64,000 nucleotides of DNA from Minisyncoccota bacterium. Lineage in GTDB: Bacteria; Patescibacteriota; Minisyncoccia; Phycocordibacterales; UBA5272. Both the position numbers and the translations under genes were made by a program. The notes under the pieces were generated by a model, which did no database searches, was not told where the DNA came from, and saw only the letters and a program-made list of their open reading frames with translations. The DNA is taken from contig DALYEZ010000001.1 in assembly GCA_031972295.1 (NCBI GenBank), positions 57,759 to 121,758 on the forward strand. Direction: 5' to 3'. Below are positions 12,876 through 53,991 of the stretch, piece after piece (within the stretch, counting starts at the first letter, position 1; the number at the start of each line of letters is the position of its first letter).

Positions 12876-13268
12876 CTACCTGAACATCCTTTTTAGCTCT
12901 GGCCGAAGGTGTCGATTTTCCAAAATCATTTCCTTCACGAACTGACTCGTGAAAGGCATGACCTTTTTAAACCTGTCAACCACCAGATCCTGTAGGATCG
13001 GGACCTTTTCCATAAGATCCACAAGGTGAAAAGGTGATTGCGTCCTTTCAATTACCTTACGACCGAGTTCAATCAATACCTTTTCAGGCATGATCAACAA
13101 TTTGTTTGCGCCACGCTTTTGGTTTTCACGAAGTCGAAAACCAAAGAGAAGAGCGTTGAACAGGATGTCTGGATCGTTTACATCACTAGAAGTGGTGATG
13201 TAAACGAGAACACTCTGAGTCTCGTGTGAACTTTTGGCGTCCATAAGACGCCCGATGTAATCGTCCAT
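12876..13268 (-). CDS. hypothetical protein (start taken at MDDYIG)
   Basis: ORF; internal ATG avoids overlap with the upstream small gene. Confidence 0.35.
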   Translation of the reverse strand: MDDYIGRLMDAKSSHETQSVLVYITTSSDVNDPDILFNALLFGFRLRENQKRGANKLLIMPEKVLIELGRKVIERTQSPFHLVDLMEKVPILQDLVVDRFKKVMPFTSQFVKEMILENRHLRPELKRMFR

Positions 13269-24734: not shown

Positions 24735-25649
24735 ATGGATTTCCAAATACTTCTTTATTACAAATACGTAACCATTACAGACCCCGTAGCCTTCATGAAA
24801 GAGCAGCGGGACCTCTGCGAACGACTCGGACTAAAGGGGCGTATTATTGTTGCGCACGAGGGCATAAACGGCACGGTAGGCGGAAGTGTAGACGCCACAG
24901 AGATGTATATCGCGGAAATGAAAAATGATCCGCGATTCATAGATATTCACTGGAAAAAGAGCTTCGGCCCACAAGATACCTTTCCGCGCCTTTCTATTAA
25001 AGTGCGCCCTGAAATAGTAACTACCAAAATTACCGACGTAGAATTAAATCCCCAAAAAGAAACCGCAACACATCTCAAACCGGAAGAATTACATGCTTGG
25101 TATCGTGAAGGAAAGAGTTTCAAAGTTATCGACATGCGCAATTCATACGAAATTGGTATTGGAACATTCAAAGATTCTGTTGATCCAGAAACAATGAATT
25201 TTCGTGATCTTCCGAAATCGCTTGAAAAATTAAAAGTACACAAAGATGAAACTGTGCTCACCGTATGTACCGGCGGTGTACGTTGTGAAAAAGCATCACA
25301 ATATTTAAAGACGCAAGGTTTTAAAGATGTCTATCAGTTAGATGGCGGCATTGTAAGTTACATGGAGAAATATCCCGGAAAAGATTTTGAAGGAACTCTG
25401 TATGTATTTGATAAGCGAAAGAAAATGGATTTTTGTAAACCAGGAGAACGAGATGTGATAGGGAAGTGCTCAATCTGTTTAAGTACCACCGAACGAGTAG
25501 AAAACTGTGCGGACGACGAATGTCATCTTCAATTTATTTGCTGTGATAATTGTATTTCAAAATATAACGGCATGGTCTACTGCAAAGAATGCAACAATAC
25601 TCAAGGTGAATTTCCAAAGGTGAGCGGGCGAGTAACTAAAATTATTTAA
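24735..25649 (+). CDS. rhodanese-domain protein UPF0176 (TrhO/YceA-like tRNA U34 hydroxylase)
   Basis: YYKY...HEGINGT N-terminal pattern; rhodanese Cys; C-terminal Cys-rich tail. Confidence 0.65.
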   Translation: MDFQILLYYKYVTITDPVAFMKEQRDLCERLGLKGRIIVAHEGINGTVGGSVDATEMYIAEMKNDPRFIDIHWKKSFGPQDTFPRLSIKVRPEIVTTKITDVELNPQKETATHLKPEELHAWYREGKSFKVIDMRNSYEIGIGTFKDSVDPETMNFRDLPKSLEKLKVHKDETVLTVCTGGVRCEKASQYLKTQGFKDVYQLDGGIVSYMEKYPGKDFEGTLYVFDKRKKMDFCKPGERDVIGKCSICLSTTERVENCADDECHLQFICCDNCISKYNGMVYCKECNNTQGEFPKVSGRVTKII

Positions 25650-25744
25650 AACAGGGTCAATGCCACAGAACTATTGACCCAAATGAGTATTTGTGTTATA
25701 TTGTTCAAGTACCCGAGATTGGCTTGGGAGATGGAGGCTGGGAA

Positions 25745-26073
25745 TGATTGCTCAAGAGATTCCTAACAAGTTGTTCACGGAGTTGGCAGGGAAGCTAACA
25801 CTAAGCGTACCCCCAGCCCTATTCATAGGGTCATTTGGCGAAAAAGGAAGTATTCGCTTCATCAAAGATGGACTTACCACATCGGTTGGCATCCATCGAA
25901 AAAAACAAATGGTCCCCGGGGACCCCGCAGAACTTGAAATCTCTCACGGACCACCACTGATGGTTCCGGTCATTCGCATCCTTCTGGGACTTCGTGAAGA
26001 TCCAGCATTTCTCCCAATTTTGGCGCGTTGCGATAATCTTTACGCGCGGTGCAAGGATTACGCGCGGGATTGA
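25745..26073 (+). CDS. hypothetical protein
   Basis: GGAGG SD before ATG 25745; GC elevated. Confidence 0.3.
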
Positions 26074-26096
26074 TTCTCTTTTTGCATATTGATTAC

Positions 26097-26131
26097 ATTC
26101 GCGGTCCGTAGTGACCGCGAATTTTTTATAT
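26097..26131 (+). terminator. intrinsic terminator attcgcggtc-cgtagt-gaccgcgaat plus T6
   Basis: 10-bp stem. Confidence 0.5.
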
Positions 26132-26175: not shown

Positions 26176-26577
26176 ATGTACAAACAAGTAACCATCATTC
26201 TCCTAGTTGTAATTGTAAGTATTTATTTATCGTTCAACTACCAACAAAAACAAAATCCCGCACCTATTGCAATTACTTGGTCATTTGAAACAAAAGAAGC
26301 TGAGGGAATGAATCCTCCGCAAACAAAAGTAACCGTTAGTATAGATGGAAAAGACTCTAATGCAGGCATCTATGATGGAACTTGTGCTTCTGTGGAACCT
26401 ACAGAACTTGAAAGTGGAGAACTTTCCGGAGTTCTTTGTTGGTGGGCGGGAGGTGGAACTGAAATTGGTGTCTTTAAAGAAAATGGAAAAATGATTCTCA
26501 AGAAAAGAAGCATGGACGAAGGTACTGCAGAAGAAGAAGGGTTTCGAGGTAATTTTCAAACAGTTCTTGAACTCTAA
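26176..26577 (+). CDS. hypothetical membrane-anchored protein
   Basis: N-terminal TM helix. Confidence 0.35.
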   Translation: MYKQVTIILLVVIVSIYLSFNYQQKQNPAPIAITWSFETKEAEGMNPPQTKVTVSIDGKDSNAGIYDGTCASVEPTELESGELSGVLCWWAGGGTEIGVFKENGKMILKKRSMDEGTAEEEGFRGNFQTVLEL

Positions 26578-26585
26578 CGTTAGGG

Positions 26586-26760
26586 GAAATAAAAAAGCCG
26601 CTCAAGATCCGGGGAGAATCGAGAGCGGCGGCACGGCGGGGGAACACACCGTGATGTCCAGAGAACTTTAGACCAAACCTCGGTCTTTAGATCCATTCCA
26701 GATGGGGATTGGTGGCCACCTGAAATGTTTCCGAACAAATACAACGTACGTTATTTTTTT
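26586..26760 (+). other. GC-rich structured 3' region of the 26176 gene ending in U8 (several hairpins)
   Basis: gccgctc...gagcggc, cacgg/ccgtg, agacc/ggtct hairpins then aacgtacgttattttttt. Confidence 0.25.
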
Positions 26761-26796
26761 ATTACTGTCAAGAATTTAGCTGGGAAAGTTAACCAA

Positions 26797-27045
26797 AAAA
26801 GAACCGCCGTGGGTCAACGGCGGTTTTGAAATGTGGCAGCAATACCACTATTAAGAATGATTGAGTTGGTTCAGGCAAACAAATGAGCAAAGATCCTGTA
26901 TCGCGCATGGAGGCTCGCGCATAGGGATCGAGCTCTGCACGATAGTGCCGTCTGGGCCCTTCGCACGTTCGTGTAGAGCATCACTGCGCAATTGTTCCGT
27001 CTGGAGAAAGCCCCCTTCAGCACAGACGTTACCTGAACCAACCCA
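26797..27045 (-). ncRNA. candidate structured sRNA B (about 250 nt) with promoter and terminator, paired 5' and 3' ends
   Basis: minus-strand TTGACA (27079-27074) -N17- TATTTT (27056-27051); 5' GTTGGTTCAGGTAA pairs with GTTTGCCTGAACCAAC near the 3' end; hairpin plus U6 terminator at 26802-26828; about 53% GC, no credible ORF. Confidence 0.35.
26865..26880 (+). repeat. GTTGG(N)TTCAGGC motif copy 1 (plus orientation)
   Basis: gttggttcaggcaaac. Confidence 0.8.
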
Positions 27046-27046
27046 C
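27033..27046 (-). repeat. motif copy 2 (inverted)
   Basis: reverse complement reads gggttggttcaggt. Confidence 0.8.
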
Positions 27047-27129
27047 TTGTAAAATACTTTATATTTACTAATCTGTCAAATATTTATCCACAAAAAAATC
27101 ACCAGACATATTGCCGGTGATTTAGGACA

Positions 27130-27147
27130 GTTGGCGGTTCAGGCGAA
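27130..27147 (+). repeat. motif copy 3 (plus)
   Basis: gttggcggttcaggcgaa. Confidence 0.8.
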
Positions 27148-27344
27148 TGTGTCGAGGCCGAGAGCGACATTGTGCGCAATGAAACTGGCTTTTGTTGAAT
27201 ACAACACATTCCACTCCGGAGGGAATCCCACCCTCGAAGATCACGCGCGCGTCTGGATTAGACCGTGACTGGTTGATTCGGAAGAAGCTCCGACAGAGCC
27301 ATATCCGGATACTGCAACCCCAAATCTGGTAGTTGCCCACGAGT

Positions 27345-27364
27345 GTTTGCCTGAACCGGCCAAC
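27345..27364 (-). repeat. motif copy 4 (inverted)
   Basis: reverse complement reads gttggccggttcaggcaaac. Confidence 0.8.
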
Positions 27365-27445
27365 TGGAGAAGATAGTACTCCCATCTACGTATCCTTGTC
27401 AATTTTTACAAAGATGCGTAGAGAATTATGTTAAAATAATAAAAA

Positions 27446-27862
27446 ATGAATAAAACTATAACTATTGAGACAGTGGTTCGTAAAGATATTAAAACAGTAT
27501 GGGACCTTTTTACCGGTCCAGAACATATCGAAAAGTGGGCACACGCATCAGATGATTGGGAATGTACTAAGGCAATAAATGATATTCGTGTTGGTGGTAG
27601 ATTTTCTTCTACCATGGGAGCAAAAGACAAATCAGTATCATTTGATTTTACTGGTACCTACACGGCAGTAGAGGAGGGTAAAGCACTTGTATACACACTT
27701 GATGATAATCGAACGGTTGTAACTTCTTTTACTGAAGAGGAAGACGGTGTACATATTATTCAAACTTTTGAAATGGAGAACGAGAACTCAGAAGAACTGC
27801 AGCGAGGAGGATGGCAGGCAATATTAGATACCTTTAAGAAATATACTGAGTCAGTTCAGTAA
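27446..27862 (+). CDS. SRPBCC (AHSA1/polyketide-cyclase-like) domain protein
   Basis: about 140 aa, pattern typical of the Aha1-like START/Bet-v1 fold. Confidence 0.55.
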   Translation: MNKTITIETVVRKDIKTVWDLFTGPEHIEKWAHASDDWECTKAINDIRVGGRFSSTMGAKDKSVSFDFTGTYTAVEEGKALVYTLDDNRTVVTSFTEEEDGVHIIQTFEMENENSEELQRGGWQAILDTFKKYTESVQ

Positions 27863-27869
27863 AACCAAT

Positions 27870-28985
27870 ATGAAAAAAATTATCATTCCCTTAGGTGTCA
27901 TCATTATTATAGGGATTCTTTTGTACGTATATCGCGGAGAAATAACCAAACATTACTTCAAGCCAACAGATACAAACGTTACTGAAGGTACTCATCAAGG
28001 AGGAAAGCAACCAGTTGTAGTTGCGGAAGATCTTAATATCCCTTGGGAATTAGTGTTCTTACCAGGTGGAGATATGTTAGTAACCGAACGTGCTGGAAAA
28101 TTGCTAAGAATTGGGAGTAATAGACAGGCGATTGAAATACAAGGGGTAGAACATCGAGGAGAAGGTGGATTACTTGGGCTCACGCTACACCCAAACTTTG
28201 CCCAGAATAATCTTTTTTACATCTACCTTACTACTTTGGATGGAAAAACACTGAGTAATCAAGTTGAACGATATACACTAACAGGCACAACTCTTTCCGA
28301 TAGAAAGGTAATTCTTGAAAACATCCCTGGCTCTACTAATCATGATGGTGGGCGAATTGCATTCGGCCCTGATGCGATGCTTTACATTACGACAGGCGAT
28401 GCGGGTACTCCTGATAATGCGCAAAAAATAGAAAGTTTGGCAGGAAAGATTTTACGAGTACAAGATGATGGATCAATACCATCTGATAATCCATTCAAAA
28501 ATGCAGTGTACTCATACGGTCATCGCAATGTACAAGGATTAGCATGGGACATTAATGAACAATTGTGGGCAACAGAACATGGAAGATCAGGGGCAGTATC
28601 TGGATATGATGAAGTAAATAAAATTATAAAAGGATCAAACTACGGCTGGCCATTTGTTCAAGGAGATGAAGTGCGGAGAGGAATGGTGTCTCCTTATTTA
28701 CATTCCACTGCAAGTGATACATGGGCCCCCGCTGGCGCAGTACATCTTAACAAACATCTTATCTTTACTGGATTGCGAGGAGAGTCACTCTACATCACAA
28801 ATACCACTACTCCAGGAGAAAACCTAAAGGCGTTTTTCAAGAGCACCTATGGACGTCTTCGTACTGTAACTATTGGGCCAGATAATATGCTCTATGTTCT
28901 TACCAACAACAAAGATGGGCGAGGGGATGCGGAAGCCAGAGATGATCGGATAATTAAAATAGATCCAAAAACATTGGGGTTATAA
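27870..28985 (+). CDS. PQQ-dependent sugar (glucose/sorbosone) dehydrogenase-family beta-propeller, membrane-anchored
   Basis: NIPWELVFLPGG, GGLLGLTLHPNF, HDGGRIAFGPDGMLY-like motifs; N-terminal TM. Confidence 0.7.
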   Translation: MKKIIIPLGVIIIIGILLYVYRGEITKHYFKPTDTNVTEGTHQGGKQPVVVAEDLNIPWELVFLPGGDMLVTERAGKLLRIGSNRQAIEIQGVEHRGEGGLLGLTLHPNFAQNNLFYIYLTTLDGKTLSNQVERYTLTGTTLSDRKVILENIPGSTNHDGGRIAFGPDAMLYITTGDAGTPDNAQKIESLAGKILRVQDDGSIPSDNPFKNAVYSYGHRNVQGLAWDINEQLWATEHGRSGAVSGYDEVNKIIKGSNYGWPFVQGDEVRRGMVSPYLHSTASDTWAPAGAVHLNKHLIFTGLRGESLYITNTTTPGENLKAFFKSTYGRLRTVTIGPDNMLYVLTNNKDGRGDAEARDDRIIKIDPKTLGL

Positions 28986-28992
28986 TGTATAG

Positions 28993-29454
28993 ATGGCGGA
29001 TGCAAATATAGAAATCCTTAAAAAGGAAACCTATTTGAAAGCTATAGAAAATAGCGTGGGGAGCAGACTGTTTAATTCTCTTTTTGTTAGATATAAACAT
29101 ACAGGAGAAGTAAAAGATATTTTAAATAACTGCGAACTCTCTTGTGCATTCTTCACAAGCAACATACTTCTTATGTTTGGAGTATTCGAGAAACCATTTG
29201 CAACAGTGAGAGGTTTGAAAGCATCAATTGATCAAAATTGTAAGTGGAAAAAGATTTCCCTTGGTGAGGTTGAAAAAGGGGACGTGGTCTTCTGGGAAAA
29301 GAAAAAACATGAGGACGGTACCGAAACGGCACATGTCGGATTCATGATTAATAAAGAAGAAGCAGTTTCAACAAGTACTCAAAGTAAAATGGTTGCTCGA
29401 CATTCAGCAATGAATAGGGCAATAGACAGTATTTACAGATACTCTTGGGAATAG
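28993..29454 (+). CDS. hypothetical protein (possible Cys/His hydrolase fold)
   Basis: ORF only; Cys...His spacing is suggestive but weak. Confidence 0.3.
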   Translation: MADANIEILKKETYLKAIENSVGSRLFNSLFVRYKHTGEVKDILNNCELSCAFFTSNILLMFGVFEKPFATVRGLKASIDQNCKWKKISLGEVEKGDVVFWEKKKHEDGTETAHVGFMINKEEAVSTSTQSKMVARHSAMNRAIDSIYRYSWE

Positions 29455-29562
29455 CACTTATTTTGACTTTAATATAAAATATGGCATTATGTATCTAAGA
29501 GTTCTTTAGGTCTTAATGCTGTAGTGTTGTGCTGTACCAATTCAACTGATGCGGAGGTTGCC

Positions 29563-29892
29563 ATGCCAAGAGACATTTTTTCGGATAATGAACCAAGCGA
29601 TGAGGAGATCATGGAAGATGTGAGTGACCAAACATTGCGTCACATGCATCTTGGTGAAAACATCAACTACCTCAGCAACAAACTGTTCGACCACACTGGG
29701 ACGCTGGTTGACGGTACCACCAAGGACGACGTCGCAAGAATGACAACTTATGCCAAGATCGGACTCCTGGAACGCATGTACAACCACACCCAAATGCAAG
29801 GCACCGGCCTGTGTTGGGAAATCGGTGCTTTCCTAGAAGACATCAGTGAGGATGAGAAGCGAGGCTTCAAGACCACTGACGACTACAACTGA
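29563..29892 (+). CDS. hypothetical protein
   Basis: GGAGG SD before MPRDIF; acidic protein. Confidence 0.35.
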   Translation: MPRDIFSDNEPSDEEIMEDVSDQTLRHMHLGENINYLSNKLFDHTGTLVDGTTKDDVARMTTYAKIGLLERMYNHTQMQGTGLCWEIGAFLEDISEDEKRGFKTTDDYN

Positions 29893-29895
29893 ACA

Positions 29896-29958
29896 CAAAC
29901 CCGCTTTGATGCGGCAAATGGAAACCCGTTTGCTTTCATCGGAGCGGGTTTTCTTTTT
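29896..29958 (+). terminator. compound hairpin terminator (aacccgct...agcgggtttt)
   Basis: seen in sequence. Confidence 0.4.
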
Positions 29959-29974
29959 GACCTATAGAAGATTA

Positions 29975-30005
29975 TAGACATAGATAGGTAATCTATGGTA
30001 CGAAT
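29975..30005 (+). promoter_or_regulatory. TAGACA-N18-TACGAAT promoter
   Basis: same architecture at 30722 and 32500. Confidence 0.35.
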
Positions 30006-30050
30006 TACTTGAACAAGTTCGTTCACATACAAGCACAAGGGGAATCCGAG

Positions 30051-30665
30051 ATGAACAAGCCACAGATCAAGAGTATTGGAGCCGGTTCCGTAACTGTTTC
30101 TGGTTTGACTCGAGAAGATGAGGAACTCTTCCAAGGACTCATCAACGGTCATCAACGCCTCAGTGTAGTTGATGGCAAGCTCGTTGCAACAGCTGTTCAT
30201 GAACCGCTGCCTGATCCAACTACGGATGAGGAGATGGCTCCATTCTGGCGTAGATGCGCACCGAATGAGGGAATACTGCAAGAAGAACTGTTCGATCGTG
30301 AGAACTATCAGAACAGCCTGTCACCATCCATCCTGATTCAGTCGTTGTGCGGATATGGTTATACACCTGAGGCTTACCGAAATCAATCGGAGCGTCTCAA
30401 GGGATATGGATTCGCGCAATTACGATCGCAACGCAGTCCCAGTGGTCAGTACTACGAGATCTGGTATTTGGCTGGTCTCTACCTTGCCCAAGGTGGCCTG
30501 GCGGAAGCTGTCGCCAAGTTCAAAAGCAACAACATGAACCTGAAAGACACCCAGGAGTACGCAAGGCGTTCGTTTAAAGCGGCCACAGACTTCTTGGCGG
30601 CGAATGTTCGCTTCGGAACTCTCGATGTGTCCGTCCAACGGTGGGCGATGTGCATGTCAGATTGA
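30051..30665 (+). CDS. hypothetical protein
   Basis: SD aagggga before ATG 30051 (30009 is a TTG). Confidence 0.4.
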   Translation: MNKPQIKSIGAGSVTVSGLTREDEELFQGLINGHQRLSVVDGKLVATAVHEPLPDPTTDEEMAPFWRRCAPNEGILQEELFDRENYQNSLSPSILIQSLCGYGYTPEAYRNQSERLKGYGFAQLRSQRSPSGQYYEIWYLAGLYLAQGGLAEAVAKFKSNNMNLKDTQEYARRSFKAATDFLAANVRFGTLDVSVQRWAMCMSD

Positions 30666-30682
30666 GGGTATCCAAATTTAGT

Positions 30683-30718
30683 CCGTCACGATGTTGTGGC
30701 GGACTTTTCTTTTTATAT
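30683..30718 (+). terminator. intrinsic terminator agtccgtcac...gtggcggact plus T-run
   Basis: seen in sequence. Confidence 0.45.
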
Positions 30719-30721
30719 TAG

Positions 30722-30752
30722 AAACAAAGTCTAGACATGACACAATGTTGCG
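30722..30752 (+). promoter_or_regulatory. TAGACA-N18-TATGAAT promoter
   Basis: shared architecture; leader homologous to the one upstream of 31491. Confidence 0.35.
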
Positions 30753-30797
30753 TGTTATGAATTATTTACTGTTCTTTAACCAACCAGGAGATTCCTG

Positions 30798-31337
30798 ATG
30801 AAAGCTCTCGTAGCAGCGATTTTCGTCATTTTGATGGTCATAGTAGTAAAGCCTCTCTCGCGGATGAATCCTCCAACGGGTGGACTCTTCATGGCTGTGG
30901 CTTTCATCCTCGTACTCATTCTGTTGGATAGAGCAGAAGAGCACTTCCATAAGAAAAAAGGAAAGAAGGAGAAACGTCCTCGAAAAACGATTTCTACGAT
31001 TTATCGCAACTATGAACCAGTGCTACGATGGTCCATTCAAGATAAGGATAAGGATACGGATTATGATCCGGACACAGCCGTTTTGTTCGATTCCGTCGTC
31101 GCAGTCGATGTGAGTTTCAAACAGTCAGTACATCTTCGAGATGGATGCGCTGTCGTCGCTGAATGTGCAGCGGCCAAGGGCAGTAACGATCCGATCAAGC
31201 TCGGTTGGGAACACCGAACCATGCGTCTGTTTTTTGAAGGAAGTTTTTTCGATAAGCAGGGACGGAGAGTTGTGGGATGCCGCAAACTCACCATGCTTTC
31301 CGACGGGAAGATGTACGCATCAGGCGTTCGCTACTAG
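30798..31337 (+). CDS. membrane protein, family A full length (2 TM, basic linker, conserved C-terminal domain)
   Basis: AGGAG SD; C-terminal domain homologous to the 31896 gene (AVDVxFxQS, AEC, GCxKLxxLxxGxxYAS). Confidence 0.5.
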   Translation: MKALVAAIFVILMVIVVKPLSRMNPPTGGLFMAVAFILVLILLDRAEEHFHKKKGKKEKRPRKTISTIYRNYEPVLRWSIQDKDKDTDYDPDTAVLFDSVVAVDVSFKQSVHLRDGCAVVAECAAAKGSNDPIKLGWEHRTMRLFFEGSFFDKQGRRVVGCRKLTMLSDGKMYASGVRY

Positions 31338-31347
31338 AAAGTTCATA

Positions 31348-31406
31348 GACGGGAGGGAAGAAATTCCTCCCGTCTCAAGCCACTCAATTGAGTGGCTTTT
31401 ATTTTT
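31348..31406 (+). terminator. two-hairpin terminator (gacgggagg...cctcccgtc, then agccactcaattgagtggct plus U-run)
   Basis: the same two-hairpin design follows the 31896 gene. Confidence 0.5.
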
Positions 31407-31490
31407 CATAACAGAATAGACATTCATAGACGAAATAGTATATTTGTGGTAATAATTATCCATTGTTCTTTAACAGAAATGGAGGTTTGC

Positions 31491-31650
31491 ATGAAAGCTC
31501 TTCTGTTCATCATCTTGTTGGCCACACTGGCAGCAACGCTTCTTTCAAGTGTCGAGTCTCTGTCAGCAAAGATCGGCATCATTGTGGTAATGATCGCCAC
31601 ACTTATTTTCTGCGATATATATTCGCGGAAGAAAAAAGGGGGTGGACTCT
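31491..31650 (+). CDS. small 2-TM protein resembling the N-terminal module of family A (MKAL..., ends RKKKGGGL)
   Basis: GGAGG SD; upstream leader (ttgttctttaac) and first codons (ATGAAAGCTCT) shared with the 30798 gene. Confidence 0.4.
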
Positions 31651-31834
31651 AATGAGATTCCTTGCACTCCTATTAATGGTTTGCGTGATTGGCCTCACGT
31701 CGATAGTGCTTCGAAAGGTTGATTTTGTACTAGCAAGAGCCGCCATCATTCTTTTTTCCATCATCGTATTCATTCTCCTCGAGAGATACATCTCTGGGGA
31801 AAGGAAGGTCCGAAGGAGAAAAAGAAGAAGGTAA
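31651..31834 (+). CDS. small 2-TM protein resembling the N-terminal module of family B (MRF..., poly-Arg tail)
   Basis: its ATG directly follows the preceding TAA (TAATGA junction). Confidence 0.35.
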
Positions 31835-31895
31835 ATGGCAAGCTTAATCCAATAGACATCGACCGTGTCGCGAAATGAAATAAGGAGAAATTCCG

Positions 31896-32420
31896 ATGAG
31901 ATTTGTTGCGATCCTTTTCTGGATTGGTTTGCTGATATACCTGCTTTTACAGCAGGATGCTGAAACGAACAAGGGTCTTGGTGTTATAGCAGTGATCCTG
32001 ATGGGGACTTTTCTCTGGTGGCTCATCCAAAAGAAAAAGGCACCTGAGCAGAAAGATACGATGCGTCGGGCAATTACGATAAGTGTCAATTACTTGGATC
32101 GAGAGTCGCCAATACGTTGGCTCCTCCACCACCAAGAATATCCCGAAACCGTCCAGGCTTTACGATCTGTCTTTGCGGTTGATGTACGTTTTCTGCAATC
32201 AAAGGACTACGAAGCTGGGTACATCTGTACCTTGATCGCCGAATGCTGGATTGCCATAGGCAATGAAATGCCTCCTTCGGTACTCGAAAATGTTCTTTTG
32301 TCTTTCGATCGTCGCACTGGTTTTTTTACCGATAGATCTGGGAAGATTGCTGTAAGCTGTGGCAAACTCTATCTTCTTCCGAATGGAAGCATCTACGCCT
32401 CGAGTATCCAGTACAAGTAA
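31896..32420 (+). CDS. membrane protein, family B full length, paralog of the 30798 gene
   Basis: AAGGAG SD; conserved C-terminal domain. Confidence 0.5.
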   Translation: MRFVAILFWIGLLIYLLLQQDAETNKGLGVIAVILMGTFLWWLIQKKKAPEQKDTMRRAITISVNYLDRESPIRWLLHHQEYPETVQALRSVFAVDVRFLQSKDYEAGYICTLIAECWIAIGNEMPPSVLENVLLSFDRRTGFFTDRSGKIAVSCGKLYLLPNGSIYASSIQYK

Positions 32421-32426
32421 TTTCAT

Positions 32427-32482
32427 CAGATGAAAGAACAGGGAGTTCTTTCATCTGAAGCCGCTCAATTGGGCGGTTTTTT
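32427..32482 (+). terminator. two-hairpin terminator (cagatgaaagaac...gttctttcatctg, then gccgctcaattgggcgg plus U6)
   Basis: 13-bp stem then a second hairpin with the same caattg loop as at 31378. Confidence 0.5.
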
Positions 32483-32499
32483 GTTGTAAATATTTTCCA

Positions 32500-32530
32500 T
32501 AGACAGAAATATACAGTCGTGGTACGAATG
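32500..32530 (+). promoter_or_regulatory. TAGACA-N18-TACGAAT promoter
   Basis: seen in sequence. Confidence 0.35.
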
Positions 32531-32564
32531 AGGAGTTGCACAAATACAACCAGAGGAGAACAAC

Positions 32565-33287
32565 ATGTCAGGTTACATAAGCAGTGCTGTGGAACAAGGT
32601 GACAGGGAATATCAACAAGACCGAGATTTCATCAAGGTGGCAGAAGGATATTCTATTCTTGCCGTCATGGATGGTCACGGCGAGAGAGGGTCGGAGATAG
32701 CGGAGTTCTGCAAGGTAGCCATCGGCGAGATTCTCGCAAACGAGGGGTACGCTTCAGATCCGGAAGAAGTGATCGGAAAGATCTTTACTGAACTCCTCGA
32801 GAAAGCCCCGTACCAGCACGATGGCGGCACAACACTTTCAATCGCCTGGATCAAGGAAGACAAAGCGGTCATCGGTGTGCTCGGCGATTCGCCGGTGCTG
32901 GTTGTGGACAAGTCTGGGCGGTGGTACAAGAGTCCTCTCCACAACACTTCAAACCAAGCAGAAAAGGATGCTGTTTTGGCAAAGGGTGGAAAGGTCGTCA
33001 CCAAGAACAACTGTCTGTACTTCCATGACCCCATGCATTACGGCGAGTACATCCAACTCAGCCGTGCAATCGGCGACAAAGTGTTCCAGGACATTCTCTT
33101 GCGAGAACCTGATATCTACACTGTCCCGAACCCCAAGTATGTTCTGGTTTCAAGCGACGGACTCCGCAGAGCAATCGCTGTAACCGTAAAAGACGACTCG
33201 ACCGCAGAAGGTCTCATGGAAGAAGCCAGGAAGTATGCCGGCGGGTTGTGGGACAATACCACGGTTCTTTTGTGGAAAAGTGCGTGA
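32565..33287 (+). CDS. PP2C-family (PPM) Ser/Thr protein phosphatase
   Basis: YQQDRDF...AVMDGHGERG...GDSPV...SDGL motifs. Confidence 0.75.
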   Translation: MSGYISSAVEQGDREYQQDRDFIKVAEGYSILAVMDGHGERGSEIAEFCKVAIGEILANEGYASDPEEVIGKIFTELLEKAPYQHDGGTTLSIAWIKEDKAVIGVLGDSPVLVVDKSGRWYKSPLHNTSNQAEKDAVLAKGGKVVTKNNCLYFHDPMHYGEYIQLSRAIGDKVFQDILLREPDIYTVPNPKYVLVSSDGLRRAIAVTVKDDSTAEGLMEEARKYAGGLWDNTTVLLWKSA

Positions 33288-33445
33288 GGCAAATAACGCA
33301 AACCATCTACCCTTAGAGAGGCCGATACACTGGTCTCTCAAGGGAGGTGGTTTTTTATTTTTATTAGAGGATAGAGATAAAAATTTTATACGCTATACTT
33401 TGAAATATGCAAATTACTAAGCTTGGAAATTGAAATACAATAAAT

Positions 33446-53890: not shown

Positions 53891-53909
53891 TTTTGTTTTT
53901 TATTTTTTG

Positions 53910-53991
53910 TGCCGGAGGAGAGACTTGAACTCTCATGGGTTACCCCGCTTGCTCCTAAGGCAAGTACGTCTACCAATTTCGCCACTCCGGC
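53910..53991 (-). tRNA. tRNA-Leu (anticodon UAG)
   Basis: acceptor GCCGGAG/CTCCGGC; anticodon loop CUUAGGA; long variable arm; T-loop TTCAAGT; discriminator A; CCA not encoded. Confidence 0.85.

What the first reader, a model, noticed from the sequence alone, without database searches (positions are those of the whole stretch)
26797..27402. Two tandem 250-270 nt candidate structured sRNAs on the minus strand, each with its own promoter, terminator and mutually complementary ends
The 860-bp stretch 26580-27440 has no credible ORF and is about 53% GC, against about 40-42% around it. Read on the minus strand it splits into two units of the same design. Each unit has a sigma70-like promoter: TTGACA-N18-TACTAT at 27402-27373, and TTGACA-N17-TATTTT at 27079-27051. 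In both, the predicted transcription start falls on a shared motif, GTTGG(N0-2)GGTTCAGG(C/T)AA. A reverse-complement copy of that motif lies near the 3' end of each unit, so the 5' and 3' ends can pair as a 14-15 bp closing stem. Each unit then ends in a hairpin plus U6-7 terminator (27091-27122, 26802-26828). All four motif copies (26865, 27033, 27130, 27345) alternate in orientation. Paired ends are a hallmark of stable structured RNAs such as 6S, Y RNA or RNase P P1, but I found no RNase P, tmRNA, SRP or 6S consensus blocks. This is either a new sRNA family in duplicate or a pair of small non-autonomous elements with 15-bp terminal inverted repeats.
Basis: seen in the sequence. Interest (0 to 1): 0.75.

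Follow-up and report, generated by a model that had tools for sequence, protein, structure and literature searches.

The report
Tandem structured small RNAs, Paceibacteria
An 800-base gene-free stretch of a Paceibacteria (candidate phyla radiation) genome holds three small RNA genes in a row, each with its own promoter and terminator and all built on the same three-armed fold; they match no family in the Rfam release 15 copy searched and their function is not known.

Summary
On the minus strand, 27402-26797 holds two transcription units. Each has a TTGACA promoter, a long helix (P1) that pairs the 5' end with a segment just before the terminator, and a hairpin/U-tract terminator. The folds are far more stable than shuffled sequence (z -5.7 and -5.3).

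- The window comes from a Paceibacteria (CPR) genome.
- I found homologous units in two other lineages: a three-unit array in L003/L011 and a single unit in L024.
- A covariance model built from unit 1 alone finds the L024 unit at E 6e-12. Of the shared pairs, 98.7% stay paired and 6 changed on both sides.
- The 'shared motif' is not conserved in sequence. It is the P1 helix, and it covaries.
- All seven units share a three-way junction: P1, an A-rich linker, P2 (CAYUC...GRRUG) and P3 (GRAY...RUUC).
- There are no Rfam, phage, viral or metagenome matches, no conserved ORF and no target-site duplications.

Verdict: an undescribed, narrowly distributed family of sibling structured sRNAs. The function is inferred, not shown: a stable shared scaffold that carries unit-specific effector loops, which are anti-Shine-Dalgarno-like in unit 3.

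The parts
27373..27402 (-). Unit 1 promoter: -35 TTGACA (27402-27397), 18-nt spacer, -10 TACTAT (27378-27373)
   Evidence: A TTGACA -35 box sits at the same relative place in L003 uA, L011 and L024.
27090..27366 (-). Unit 1 RNA (u1), about 275 nt including the terminator. The predicted start at about 27366 is the first base of P1.
   Evidence: Fold z -5.65. The ortholog in L024 is found by covariance model at 48 bits, E 6e-12. No Rfam hit.
27349..27366 (-). u1 P1, 5' strand: CAGUUGG-CC-GGUUCAGGC
   Evidence: Pairs with 27144-27128. All 16 pairs are kept between the window and L024, with 2 changes on both sides and 2 G-U changes.
27128..27144 (-). u1 P1, 3' strand: GCCUGAACC-G-CCAACUG
27341..27348 (-). 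u1 junction linker AAA and P2 5' strand CACUC. P2 pairs with GAGUG at 27216-27212.
   Evidence: AAACAYUC and GGAGUGG are conserved in the window, L024 and L003.
27212..27235 (-). u1 hairpin P2c (GAGGG..CCCUC, 27235-27219), then the P2 3' strand GAGUG (27216-27212)
   Evidence: The hairpin is kept with G-C to A-U and G-C to U-G changes in L003 and a G-U in L024.
27145..27211 (-). u1 P3 domain: stem GAAUGUGUUG (27211-27202) with CGACACAUUC (27154-27145). It encloses the conserved hairpin UUGCGCACAAUGUCGCU (27179-27163).
   Evidence: P3 has 4 pairs changed on both sides between the window and L024. The hairpin loop CACWWUGK is conserved in three lineages.
27089..27123 (-). u1 intrinsic terminator (stem 27123-27096, then a U-run)
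   Evidence: The L024 unit ends in a closely similar hairpin, AUCACCG..CGGUGAUUUUUUU.
27051..27079 (-). Unit 2 promoter: TTGACA-17-TATTTT
   Evidence: L003 uB has TTGACA-17-TACTCT in the same place.
26797..27045 (-). Unit 2 RNA (u2), about 250 nt. Parts: P1 27045-27031 with 26876-26862; linker AA; P2 hairpin 27028-26998, which holds a GGGGG stretch (27015-27011) spanning its apical stem and loop; P3 domain 26997-26877; small hairpin 26848-26833; terminator 26825-26802.
   Evidence: Fold z -5.25. The counterpart uB in L003/L011 has a G-C to A-U change in P1. In uB, 8 of 10 L003/L011 substitutions fall at unpaired positions and the other 2 are C to U opposite G.
26743..26771 (-). Unit 3 promoter: TTGACA (26771-26766), 17-nt spacer, weak -10 TACGTT (26748-26743)
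   Evidence: Read from the sequence. It falls below the scan threshold. L003 uC has TTGACG-17-TAGTAT.
26592..26736 (-). Unit 3 RNA (u3), about 145 nt. A small three-way junction comes first: P1 26737-26730 with 26662-26655, linker AA, then P2 with a CCAAUCCCCA loop, then P3. Two further hairpins with UUCCCC and UCCCC loops follow; the second of these is the terminator.
   Evidence: Fold z -4.79. Weak similarity to sX13: 25.6 bits against a gathering score of 50, E 0.017. Core alignment.

Best explanation
**What it is.** The stretch is a tandem array of three independently transcribed genes for sibling structured small RNAs, in a Paceibacteria (CPR) genome.

**The shared core.** Each RNA is built on the same three-way junction:
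- a long P1 helix that pairs the very 5' end of the transcript with a segment just upstream of the terminator;
- a 2-4 nt A-rich linker;
- P2, which starts CAYUY and ends RRRUG;
- P3, which starts GRAY and ends RUUC, and abuts the 3' strand of P1 with no linker.

The arms beyond this core differ completely between units.

**Shown.**
- The gene anatomy.
- Conservation of the core with compensatory changes across three lineages.
- Strand polarity.
- Absence of coding signal.

**Inferred mechanism.**
- The core is a common scaffold. It buries both ends, which would stabilise the RNA.
- Its junction-proximal pairs are conserved in sequence, so the core probably also serves as the handle for one shared protein partner.
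- The variable arms and 3' tails carry unit-specific effector sites that act in trans.
- For unit 3 and its L003 counterpart uC, the effectors are exposed CCCC/CCUCC loops. These can pair with the G-rich Shine-Dalgarno sequences of the minority of mRNAs in this genome that have one, and so block translation.
- For unit 1, the candidate effector is the conserved 8-nt hairpin loop CACWWUGK.
- For unit 2, the candidate is the GGGGG stretch at the tip of its first hairpin. That stretch could also pair with the C-rich loops of unit 3.
For: **Anatomy.** Promoters and terminators. Folds with z -5.65, -5.25 and -4.79, and z -7.79 for the L024 ortholog.

**Homologs.** Arrays or single units sit at the same locus in L003, in L011-13 and in L024-30.

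**Structure, unit 1.**
- A model built from window u1 alone finds the L024 unit full-length at 48 bits, E 6e-12.
- On that alignment 98.7% of cells are paired and 6 pairs changed on both sides. Slid controls give 36-46% paired and 0-1 such pairs.
- With L003 added by hand, 12 helix columns show changes on both sides.

**Shared core.**
- With filters off, the u1 model aligns end to end to window u2 and to L003 uB, uC and uA, keeping P1-P2-P3. The scores are weak, 4-9 bits.
- On trimmed cores of the seven units, 93% of cells are paired and 10 of 19 pairs changed on both sides. No shuffle of 500 reaches this, and slid controls give 0-3 such pairs.

**Selection.** Between L003 and L011, 8 of 10 substitutions in uB fall at unpaired positions and the other 2 are C to U opposite G.

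**Strand.** There are five G-U pairs in the window/L024 comparison. The model scores 281-290 bits on the minus strand against 18 on the plus strand; that contrast is partly by construction.

**Not coding.**

**Unit 3 effector.** CCCC loops. Duplex of -13.5 kcal/mol with AAGGGGGAA. Only about 8 of 38 genes have a Shine-Dalgarno-like sequence.
Against: - **No expression data.**
- **Few lineages.** Only three lineages are available, and two of them are represented by near-identical or identical contigs. The covariation statistics are therefore thin.
- **Hand-made alignments.** The three-lineage table and the seven-unit core alignment were trimmed by me from each unit's own fold. This biases the percentage paired upwards.
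- **Weak links between units.** The covariance-model links from u1 to u2, uB, uC and uA are weak (4-9 bits). Their E-values look small only because the search space was 0.6-1 kb.
- **L003 uA.** It does not fold better than shuffled sequence (z -1.05), and its P1 has a four-position non-Watson-Crick loop.
- **No partner or target.** No protein partner or mRNA target has been identified.
- **Narrow distribution.** The family is absent from more distant relatives at this locus, so it cannot be a core housekeeping RNA.
- **Fast divergence.** The array diverges much faster than its flanks: flanks are 85-89% identical in nucleotides, while the array gives no blastn hit. This could also mean weak constraint on the arms.
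Confidence: 0.55

Rival explanations
1. The units act by binding a protein rather than by base-pairing. They would be stable decoys or scaffolds in the manner of 6S RNA, Ms1, Y RNA or CsrB. They would sequester or assemble a protein such as RNA polymerase, a nuclease or a translational regulator. The arms would be spacers or extra binding sites rather than seeds.
For: - The ends are buried in a long helix and the fold is strong and compact.
- The junction-proximal pairs are conserved in sequence, not only in pairing, as expected for a protein-recognition site.
- There are several paralogs with one core.
- u1 has no obvious long single-stranded seed.
Against: - No hit to 6S, Y RNA, Ms1 or CsrB models even at E up to 10.
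- The folds are branched, not rod-like with a central bubble.
- GGA motifs are not enriched beyond what the composition predicts (read from the sequence).
- No Ro/TROVE, RtcB or CsrA gene among the annotated neighbours.
- u3 and uC do carry classic C-rich seed loops.
Confidence: 0.2
2. The array is the RNA part of a mobile or defence-type accessory module that is exchanged between strains. Examples would be antitoxin-like or decoy RNAs, or RNAs that work with the variable neighbouring genes. On this reading it is not a regulator of chromosomal genes.
For: - The locus is a mosaic hot spot.
- The slot between the 133-aa gene and the EVE gene holds three RNAs (window, L003), one RNA (L024), a MazG-like gene (L006, L008) or only a roughly 60-nt sRNA (L004, L014, L015, L031).
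- The window also has about 6 kb of extra genes beside the array.
- Window u1 resembles the L024 unit more than L003 uA does, although the window's flanks are closer to L003.
- The upstream slot holds unrelated genes in L003 and L011, although their arrays are 97% identical.
Against: - No integrase, transposase, reverse transcriptase, toxin or known defence gene was recognised in the neighbours.
- No hit in phage records or viral contigs.
- No repeats mark element ends.
- PADLOC was not run.
Confidence: 0.12
3. The units are small non-autonomous transposable elements (MITEs). Their 15-bp terminal inverted repeats would be transposase binding sites, and the apparent promoters and terminators would be incidental.
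For: - Each unit is bounded by an inverted repeat, and two units in one genome share the repeat sequence.
- Matched changes in both arms would also be expected if one transposase had to recognise both ends.
Against: - No target-site duplications: the flanks are CTTCTC/TCCTAA and ACAAG/ATCAT.
- Copies occur only in the array. There are none elsewhere in the 64-kb window or in the other fetched DNA of L003 and L011.
- The interiors of the units are unrelated.
- The arms contain G-U pairs, which would be A-C mismatches in DNA or on the other strand.
- Internal helices P2, P2c and P3 also covary.
- The -35 box, the start site at the first base of P1 and the terminator are all conserved in position in all lineages.
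- No transposase is nearby.
Confidence: 0.03
4. The stretch is a decayed protein-coding gene, or it encodes small proteins, and the folds are a by-product of its GC content.
For: - An 87-aa ORF (27385-27122) and several 45-63-aa ORFs exist in the stretch.
- The neighbouring GC-rich 25693-26073 stretch did turn out to be a real gene.
Against: - Six-frame segments of the window array give only short chance matches to the homologous arrays: the best is 11 aa at E 0.001, in a database of about 2.4 kb.
- By the same approach, the real 109-aa neighbour gives 75% identity over 106 aa at E 7e-52.
- No gene was called here by the source pipelines in L001, L003-like contigs or L024.
- The folds beat dinucleotide-preserving shuffles, so GC content alone does not explain them.
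Confidence: 0.02
5. The units are cis-acting leaders or riboswitches that control adjacent genes, or they are DNA-level structures such as recombination sites.
For: - GC-rich structured intergenic elements are often riboswitches.
- Unit 1's promoter lies back to back with the AHSA1-family gene in the window and with the EVE gene in L003 and L024.
Against: - Each unit ends in its own terminator. What follows is another promoter or a convergent gene, so nothing lies downstream to regulate.
- The neighbour on the promoter side differs between lineages: AHSA1 in the window, EVE in the others.
- No riboswitch model matches.
- The G-U pairs point to RNA, not DNA.
Confidence: 0.03

Closest known systems
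Sibling sRNA arrays such as Listeria LhrC1-5 (also Qrr1-5, OmrA/B, AbcR1/2). This comparison rests on my own knowledge and was not tested here.
   Same: - Several paralogous sRNA genes sit head to tail.
- Each has its own promoter and intrinsic terminator.
- In LhrC the hairpin loops are C/U-rich and pair with ribosome-binding sites, as proposed here for u3 and uC.
   Different: - Those siblings are short (about 100 nt), alignable with each other and lack a long end-to-end closing helix.
- Here the paralogs keep only a three-way-junction core, while the 100-200 nt of arms are unalignable.
- The host is a CPR bacterium in which most genes appear to lack a Shine-Dalgarno sequence.
Xanthomonas sX13 (Rfam RF02232) and other C-rich-loop sRNAs (RoxS/RsaE; cyanobacterial Yfr1)
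   Same: - u3 has three hairpins that each present a run of four or five C. This is the design of sX13, and cmscan gives it as the best hit (25.6 bits, E 0.017).
- The roughly 60-nt relatives in L014 and similar loci give a weak Yfr1 hit.
   Different: - The scores are far below the gathering thresholds (50 and 38 bits), so this is convergence in design, not homology.
- u3 also carries the three-way-junction core at its 5' end, which sX13 lacks.
6S RNA, Ms1 and Y RNA: stable RNAs whose 5' and 3' ends pair
   Same: The termini are paired in a long helix, the RNA is 150-300 nt with its own promoter, and it is probably abundant and stable.
   Different: - No covariance-model match.
- The topology is a branched three-way junction, not a rod with a central bubble (6S) or a stem with a bulged Ro site (Y RNA).
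- No Ro ortholog among the annotated neighbours.
MITEs and other small elements with terminal inverted repeats
   Same: The units are 190-240 bp and bounded by 15-18 bp inverted repeats.
   Different: - No target-site duplication, no dispersal and unrelated interiors.
- G-U pairs and covarying internal helices.
- Precisely placed promoters and terminators.

Membership tests
Any Rfam 15 family (6S, SRP, RNase P, tmRNA, Y RNA, riboswitches, ribozymes, known sRNAs) | Covariance-model score at or above the family's gathering score | tested here: not met
   - At gathering thresholds the whole window gives only tRNA-Leu.
- At E up to 10 on 26400-27600 the best hit is sX13, 25.6 bits against 50.
- L011, L024 and four other loci also give nothing relevant.
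- ARAGORN finds no tmRNA.
sX13-type C-rich-loop sRNA (unit 3 only) | Several hairpins whose loops carry runs of 4-5 C | tested here: met
   The loops are CCAAUCCCCA, UGUUCCCC and UCCCC in the minimum-free-energy fold, z -4.79.
sX13-type C-rich-loop sRNA (unit 3 only) | Homology to the RF02232 model | tested here: not met
   25.6 bits, with a gathering score of 50.
6S RNA | Rod-like fold: closing stem, large central bubble that mimics an open promoter, and a terminal stem | tested here: not met
   The predicted folds are multi-branched three-way junctions. No RF00013 hit.
Bacterial Y RNA (YrlA-type) | Encoded next to an rsr (Ro/TROVE) gene, with a tRNA-like domain | tested here: not met
   - Neighbour annotations covering about -6.8 kb to +10 kb around the array (-5 kb to +5 kb in L006 and L008) list no TROVE or RtcB family.
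- No Y_RNA hit.
- The rest of the genome was not searched.
MITE / TIR element | Target-site duplication flanking the inverted repeats | tested here: not met
   The flanks are CTTCTC | TCCTAA for u1 and ACAAG | ATCAT for u2.
MITE / TIR element | Multiple dispersed copies with similar interiors | tested here: not met
   The motif is confined to the array. The interiors do not align.
Independent sRNA gene (general) | Own sigma-70-type promoter and intrinsic terminator, conserved in position in relatives | tested here: met
   for the window. A TTGACA box with a TAnnnT -10 and a terminator is present at every unit in L003, L011 and L024.
Independent sRNA gene (general) | Detected transcript of the predicted size and strand | not testable with these tools
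   No transcriptome data were available.
Conserved structured RNA (general) | Base pairs maintained through compensatory changes in orthologs | tested here: met
   - Window against L024: 98.7% paired, 6 pairs changed on both sides, slid controls 0-1.
- Three lineages aligned by hand: 12 columns with changes on both sides.
- Only three lineages were available, so this is support, not proof.

The most novel reading that the evidence does not exclude
The conserved three-way junction is the handle for a dedicated, still unidentified protein. The hypervariable arms are interchangeable specificity modules. The array would then be a cassette-like, horizontally shuffled set of programmable RNAs, a guide-and-scaffold system particular to CPR bacteria, rather than a set of ordinary riboregulators. 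Three observations fit this: the arms diverge far faster than the flanking genes, the RNA similarities do not follow the flank phylogeny, and the number of units per locus varies.
Probability: 0.1. Interest if true: 0.8.

Novelty: new member of a known kind. Interest (0 to 1): 0.5.

Why it matters
**Context.** CPR/Patescibacteria have tiny genomes and few recognised regulators. My literature searches found no report of an sRNA family in Paceibacteria.

**What this adds.**
- A family of sibling structured sRNAs with a defined, covarying three-way-junction core gives a concrete handle on post-transcriptional control in these uncultured organisms.
- It provides a model that can be searched across genomes.
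- Most mRNAs in this genome seem to lack a Shine-Dalgarno sequence. C-rich, anti-Shine-Dalgarno-like loops would therefore single out a small set of Shine-Dalgarno-led genes, several of which lie beside the array.

**Limits.** The distribution seen so far is narrow (three lineages at one locus) and the function is not known. The finding is solid but of moderate reach.

Tried and rejected
**Alignment and search attempts that failed**
- **Direct alignment of unit 1 with unit 2, and of window units with L003 units.** MAFFT was tried in several modes. Only the ends and a few blocks align, and RNAalifold on those alignments was uninformative. mafft-qinsi is not installed.
- **BLASTN of the array against all fetched loci and against phage records.** No hits beyond identical contigs.
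- **Pattern scans.**
  - The unit 2 end pattern in viral contigs gave two related AT-rich coding hits, which are chance.
  - The unit 1 internal pattern gave five hits, all in GC-rich coding DNA, also chance.
  - The unit 2 end pattern in metagenome contigs gave one hit that, read by eye, appears to lie inside a protease gene, probably chance.
  - The unit 1 junction pattern in viral contigs gave none.

**Alternative identities considered**
- **A fourth RNA on the plus strand at 25674-26122**, with its own promoter and terminator. Rejected: it is a conserved 109-aa gene with a GGAGG ribosome-binding site.
- **TIGR arrays, box C/D-like k-turn, tRNA with a group I intron, SRP Alu domain, 5S rRNA, hammerhead and phi29 pRNA.** L003 uA has UGAU/CUGA-like strings. 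All were considered from memory because of end pairing or three-way junctions. None has model support, and the junction lengths or sizes do not fit.

**Other checks**
- **Extra family members elsewhere in the window.** The loose motif hits at 12885 and 37573 lie in or at the end of coding sequence. No other GC-rich intergenic island exists.
- **Pfam on ten neighbouring proteins.** Nothing RNA-related.
Full report
**1. What is in the sequence**

Read on the minus strand, 27402-26590 contains three units of one design.

| Unit | Promoter | Transcript | Terminator |
|---|---|---|---|
| u1 | TTGACA-18-TACTAT, 27402-27373 | 27366 to about 27090 | 27123-27096 plus U-run |
| u2 | TTGACA-17-TATTTT, 27079-27051 | 27045 to about 26797 | 26825-26802 plus U-run |
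| u3 | TTGACA-17-TACGTT, 26771-26743 | about 26736-26592 | about 26629-26597 plus U-run |

- The scan tool reports the first two promoters (10 of 12 matches each) and both terminators. The u3 -10 box is too weak for its threshold.
- The motif GGTTCAGGYAA occurs at 26868, 27029, 27136 and 27347 in alternating orientation. No shuffle of 100 reaches the observed count.
- In both units the predicted transcription start is the first base of the helix that the motif forms with its inverted copy.
- Fold stability: u1 -109 kcal/mol, z -5.65; u2 -100.2, z -5.25; u3 -60.9, z -4.79. No shuffle does as well.
- GC is 54-55% in the RNA bodies, 47% over the whole 26580-27440 stretch, and 39-41% in the flanks. 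This is the only GC-rich intergenic island in the window.
- No ORF exceeds 87 aa.

**2. Known families**

- cmscan against Rfam 15 finds only a tRNA-Leu in the whole window at gathering thresholds.
- At E up to 10 on the region, the best match is sX13 to u3, at 25.6 bits against a gathering score of 50.
- ARAGORN finds no tmRNA.
- The homologous loci give nothing either.
- Literature searches found no report of sRNA families in Paceibacteria.

**3. Source and relatives**

The flanking TrhO-family gene (24735-25649) finds Candidatus Paceibacteria MAGs.

| Lineage | Loci | What sits at this locus |
|---|---|---|
| W (window) | L001, L002 (identical to the window) | 133-aa gene, then u3, u2, u1, then an AHSA1-family gene and about 6 kb of further genes before the EVE gene |
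| A | L003; L011-13 (97% identical to L003 in the array) | 133-aa gene, then uC, uB, uA, then the EVE gene |
| B | L024-30 (identical to each other) | 133-aa gene, a single unit, then the EVE gene |
| More distant | L006, L008 | a MazG-like gene in this slot |
| More distant | L009 | a different gene |
| More distant | L004, L014, L015, L031, L032, L034 (L034 judged from the gene layout only) | only a roughly 60-nt sRNA divergent from the EVE gene: TTGACA promoter, hairpin, UCCCCC stretch, terminator |

- Pattern scans of viral and metagenome contigs gave only chance hits in coding DNA.
- A phage BLASTN gave nothing.
- The family is therefore narrowly distributed as far as these tools can see.

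**4. Is the structure conserved? Unit 1**

- A covariance model made from window u1 alone used 39 pairs: P1, P2, hairpin P2c, P3 and a small conserved hairpin. It finds the L024 unit full-length at 48.1 bits, E 6e-12.
- On the resulting alignment, 98.7% of cells form standard pairs.
- Six pairs changed on both sides: two in P1 (G-C to U-A and A-U to G-C) and four in P3.
- Five further pairs differ by a G-U.
- Slid controls give 36-46% paired and 0-1 double changes.
- L003 uA is too diverged for the model with default filters. It still shares these blocks: AAACAYUC, the P2c hairpin followed by CGGAGUGG, UUGCGCACnnUGUCGCU and ACAUUCGCC.
- Placed by hand, it raises the number of helix columns with changes on both sides to 12.
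- Its P1 has a symmetric UGAU/UGAU loop where the other two lineages have four Watson-Crick pairs, and its fold is not better than shuffles (z -1.05).
- Even so, L003 and L011 show no substitution in the roughly 300-nt body of uA. uB has 10 and uC about 10, where about 8 would be expected for uA.
- In uB, 8 of the 10 fall at unpaired positions and 2 are C to U opposite G. This is what selection on a minus-strand RNA fold predicts.

**5. Are the units related to each other?**

- With filters off, the window-plus-L024 model aligns end to end to window u2 (9.3 bits), L003 uB (9.1), uC (8.4) and uA (4.3). Each alignment keeps P1, P2 and P3 and deletes the arms.
- These scores are weak. The E-values are small only because 0.6-1 kb was searched.
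- Reading the folds, all seven units share one layout:
  - P1;
  - a 2-4 nt linker: AAA, AA or AGAG;
  - P2 beginning CACUC, CAUUC, CAUGU or CAUUU (CGUCU in u2) and ending GAGUG, GAAUG, ACAUG or AGACG;
  - then directly P3, beginning GAAUG, GAACA, GGAUG or GAUCU and ending CAUUC, UGCUC, UGUUU, GGUUC or AGUUC;
  - then directly the P1 3' strand.
- On cores trimmed to these elements, 93% of cells pair and 10 of 19 pairs changed on both sides. No shuffle of 500 matches the covariation score, and slid controls give 0-3 such pairs.
- Caveat: I cut these cores from each unit's own fold, so the percentage paired is biased. The informative point is that helices of different sequence sit at the same places relative to conserved junction nucleotides.
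- I conclude that the units are distant paralogs of one family with a conserved three-way junction and free-running arms.

**6. Rivals tested**

*MITE.*
- No target-site duplication.
- No dispersed copies.
- Unrelated interiors.
- G-U pairs and covarying internal helices.
- Promoters and terminators conserved in position.

*Decayed gene.*
- Six-frame segments give only short chance matches to the homologous arrays.
- The neighbouring 109-aa gene, checked the same way, gives 75% identity at E 7e-52.
- That gene (25744-26073) had at first looked like a fourth RNA, because it is GC-rich and has its own promoter and terminator.

*Cis-regulator.* Each unit ends in a terminator with nothing downstream to control.

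*Phage or mobile origin.*
- No hits in phage records or viral contigs.
- No recognisable mobility or defence genes nearby.
- The locus is nevertheless clearly mosaic. Flanking genes are 85-89% identical in nucleotides between the window and L003, while the arrays give no BLASTN hit. Window u1 is closer to the L024 unit, whose 133-aa gene is only 66% identical to the window's.

**7. How it probably works (inference)**

- P1 starts at the first transcribed base and pairs with the segment just before the terminator, so both ends are buried. This would stabilise the RNA.
- The first pairs of P2 and P3 are conserved in sequence, which suggests a specific tertiary fold or a common protein partner.
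- The arms differ between units and evolve fast, so they are the likely unit-specific parts.
- u3 (loops CCAAUCCCCA, UGUUCCCC, UCCCC), uC (CCUCCCCC, UUCCCCA, AUCCCC) and the roughly 60-nt relatives (CCCCCUCCUU in L004) present C-rich, anti-Shine-Dalgarno-like single strands. This is the design of sX13, RoxS/RsaE and LhrC, which block ribosome binding (known from the literature, not tested here).
- RNAduplex gives -13.5 kcal/mol for u3 with AAGGGGGAA.
- Only about 8 of 38 genes in the window have a Shine-Dalgarno-like sequence. Many of the rest have a -10-like box directly before the start codon, which suggests leaderless mRNAs.
- Several Shine-Dalgarno-bearing genes lie next to the array.
- For u1, the best candidate site is the conserved hairpin loop CACWWUGK.
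- For u2 and uB, it is a GGGGG stretch at the tip of the first hairpin (window 27015-27011). That stretch could also pair with the C-rich loops of u3 or uC.
- None of these interactions has been shown.

**8. Verdict**

- This is a real, previously undescribed family of sibling structured sRNAs in Paceibacteria.
- It is a new member of a known kind, namely independently transcribed bacterial sRNAs in a tandem array.
- Its notable feature is the shared three-way-junction scaffold.
- Confidence that these are genuine structured RNA genes is about 0.8.
- Confidence in the scaffold-plus-effector, trans-acting mechanism is about 0.35-0.4.
- The best-explanation confidence of 0.55 in the report form is for the combined statement.
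- Interest is moderate: 0.5.

Noticed in passing
window 26592-26771 (-): A third sRNA gene (u3) lies directly after unit 2. It has a TTGACA -35 box, a small three-way junction, and then hairpins with CCCC loops, the last of which is the terminator. The best Rfam hit is sX13, at 25.6 bits against a gathering score of 50.
   Followed up: yes
window 25674-26122 (+): This GC-rich stretch has its own promoter (TTGACC-17-TATATT) and terminator and looked like a 410-nt RNA. It is a conserved 109-aa gene (25744-26073) with a GGAGG ribosome-binding site. It is 75% identical in L003 and has no Pfam family. In L011 and L010 the same slot holds an unrelated 141-146-aa gene.
   Followed up: yes
L004 9130-9230 (-); L014 472-527 (-); L015 1335-1442 (-); L031 2905-3000 (-); L032 1000-1110 (-): In more distant Paceibacteria, a roughly 60-nt sRNA is transcribed divergently from the EVE-domain gene. 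It has a TTGACA promoter, one hairpin, a single-stranded UCCCCC/CCUCC stretch and a terminator. It gives a weak Yfr1 hit in L014 (22.9 bits against a gathering score of 38). It may be the ancestral occupant of this locus.
   Followed up: partly
window, upstream 20 nt of 38 long ORFs: Only about 8 of 38 genes have a Shine-Dalgarno-like sequence. Many others have TATACT or TATAAT directly before the start codon, which suggests leaderless mRNAs. Several Shine-Dalgarno-bearing genes (25744, 30798, 31896, 32565) lie in the variable island beside the RNA array.
   Followed up: partly
window 26176-33445 compared with L003, L011, L024, L006, L008: The locus is mosaic. The slot between the 133-aa membrane-anchored protein gene and the EVE gene holds three RNAs plus about 6 kb of genes (window), three RNAs (L003), one RNA (L024) or a MazG-like gene (L006, L008). 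Flanks are 85-89% identical in nucleotides between the window and L003, while the arrays give no BLASTN hit.
   Followed up: partly
L003 12709-12385 (-) compared with L011: The body of unit uA has no substitution between L003 and L011 over about 300 nt, while uB has 10 and uC about 10. Yet uA folds no better than shuffled sequence (z -1.05). Its P1 carries a symmetric UGAU/UGAU loop (a possible tandem G-A motif) where the other lineages have four Watson-Crick pairs.
   Followed up: partly
window 53909-53991 (-): tRNA-Leu (anticodon TAG). This is the only Rfam or ARAGORN hit in the window.
   Followed up: no
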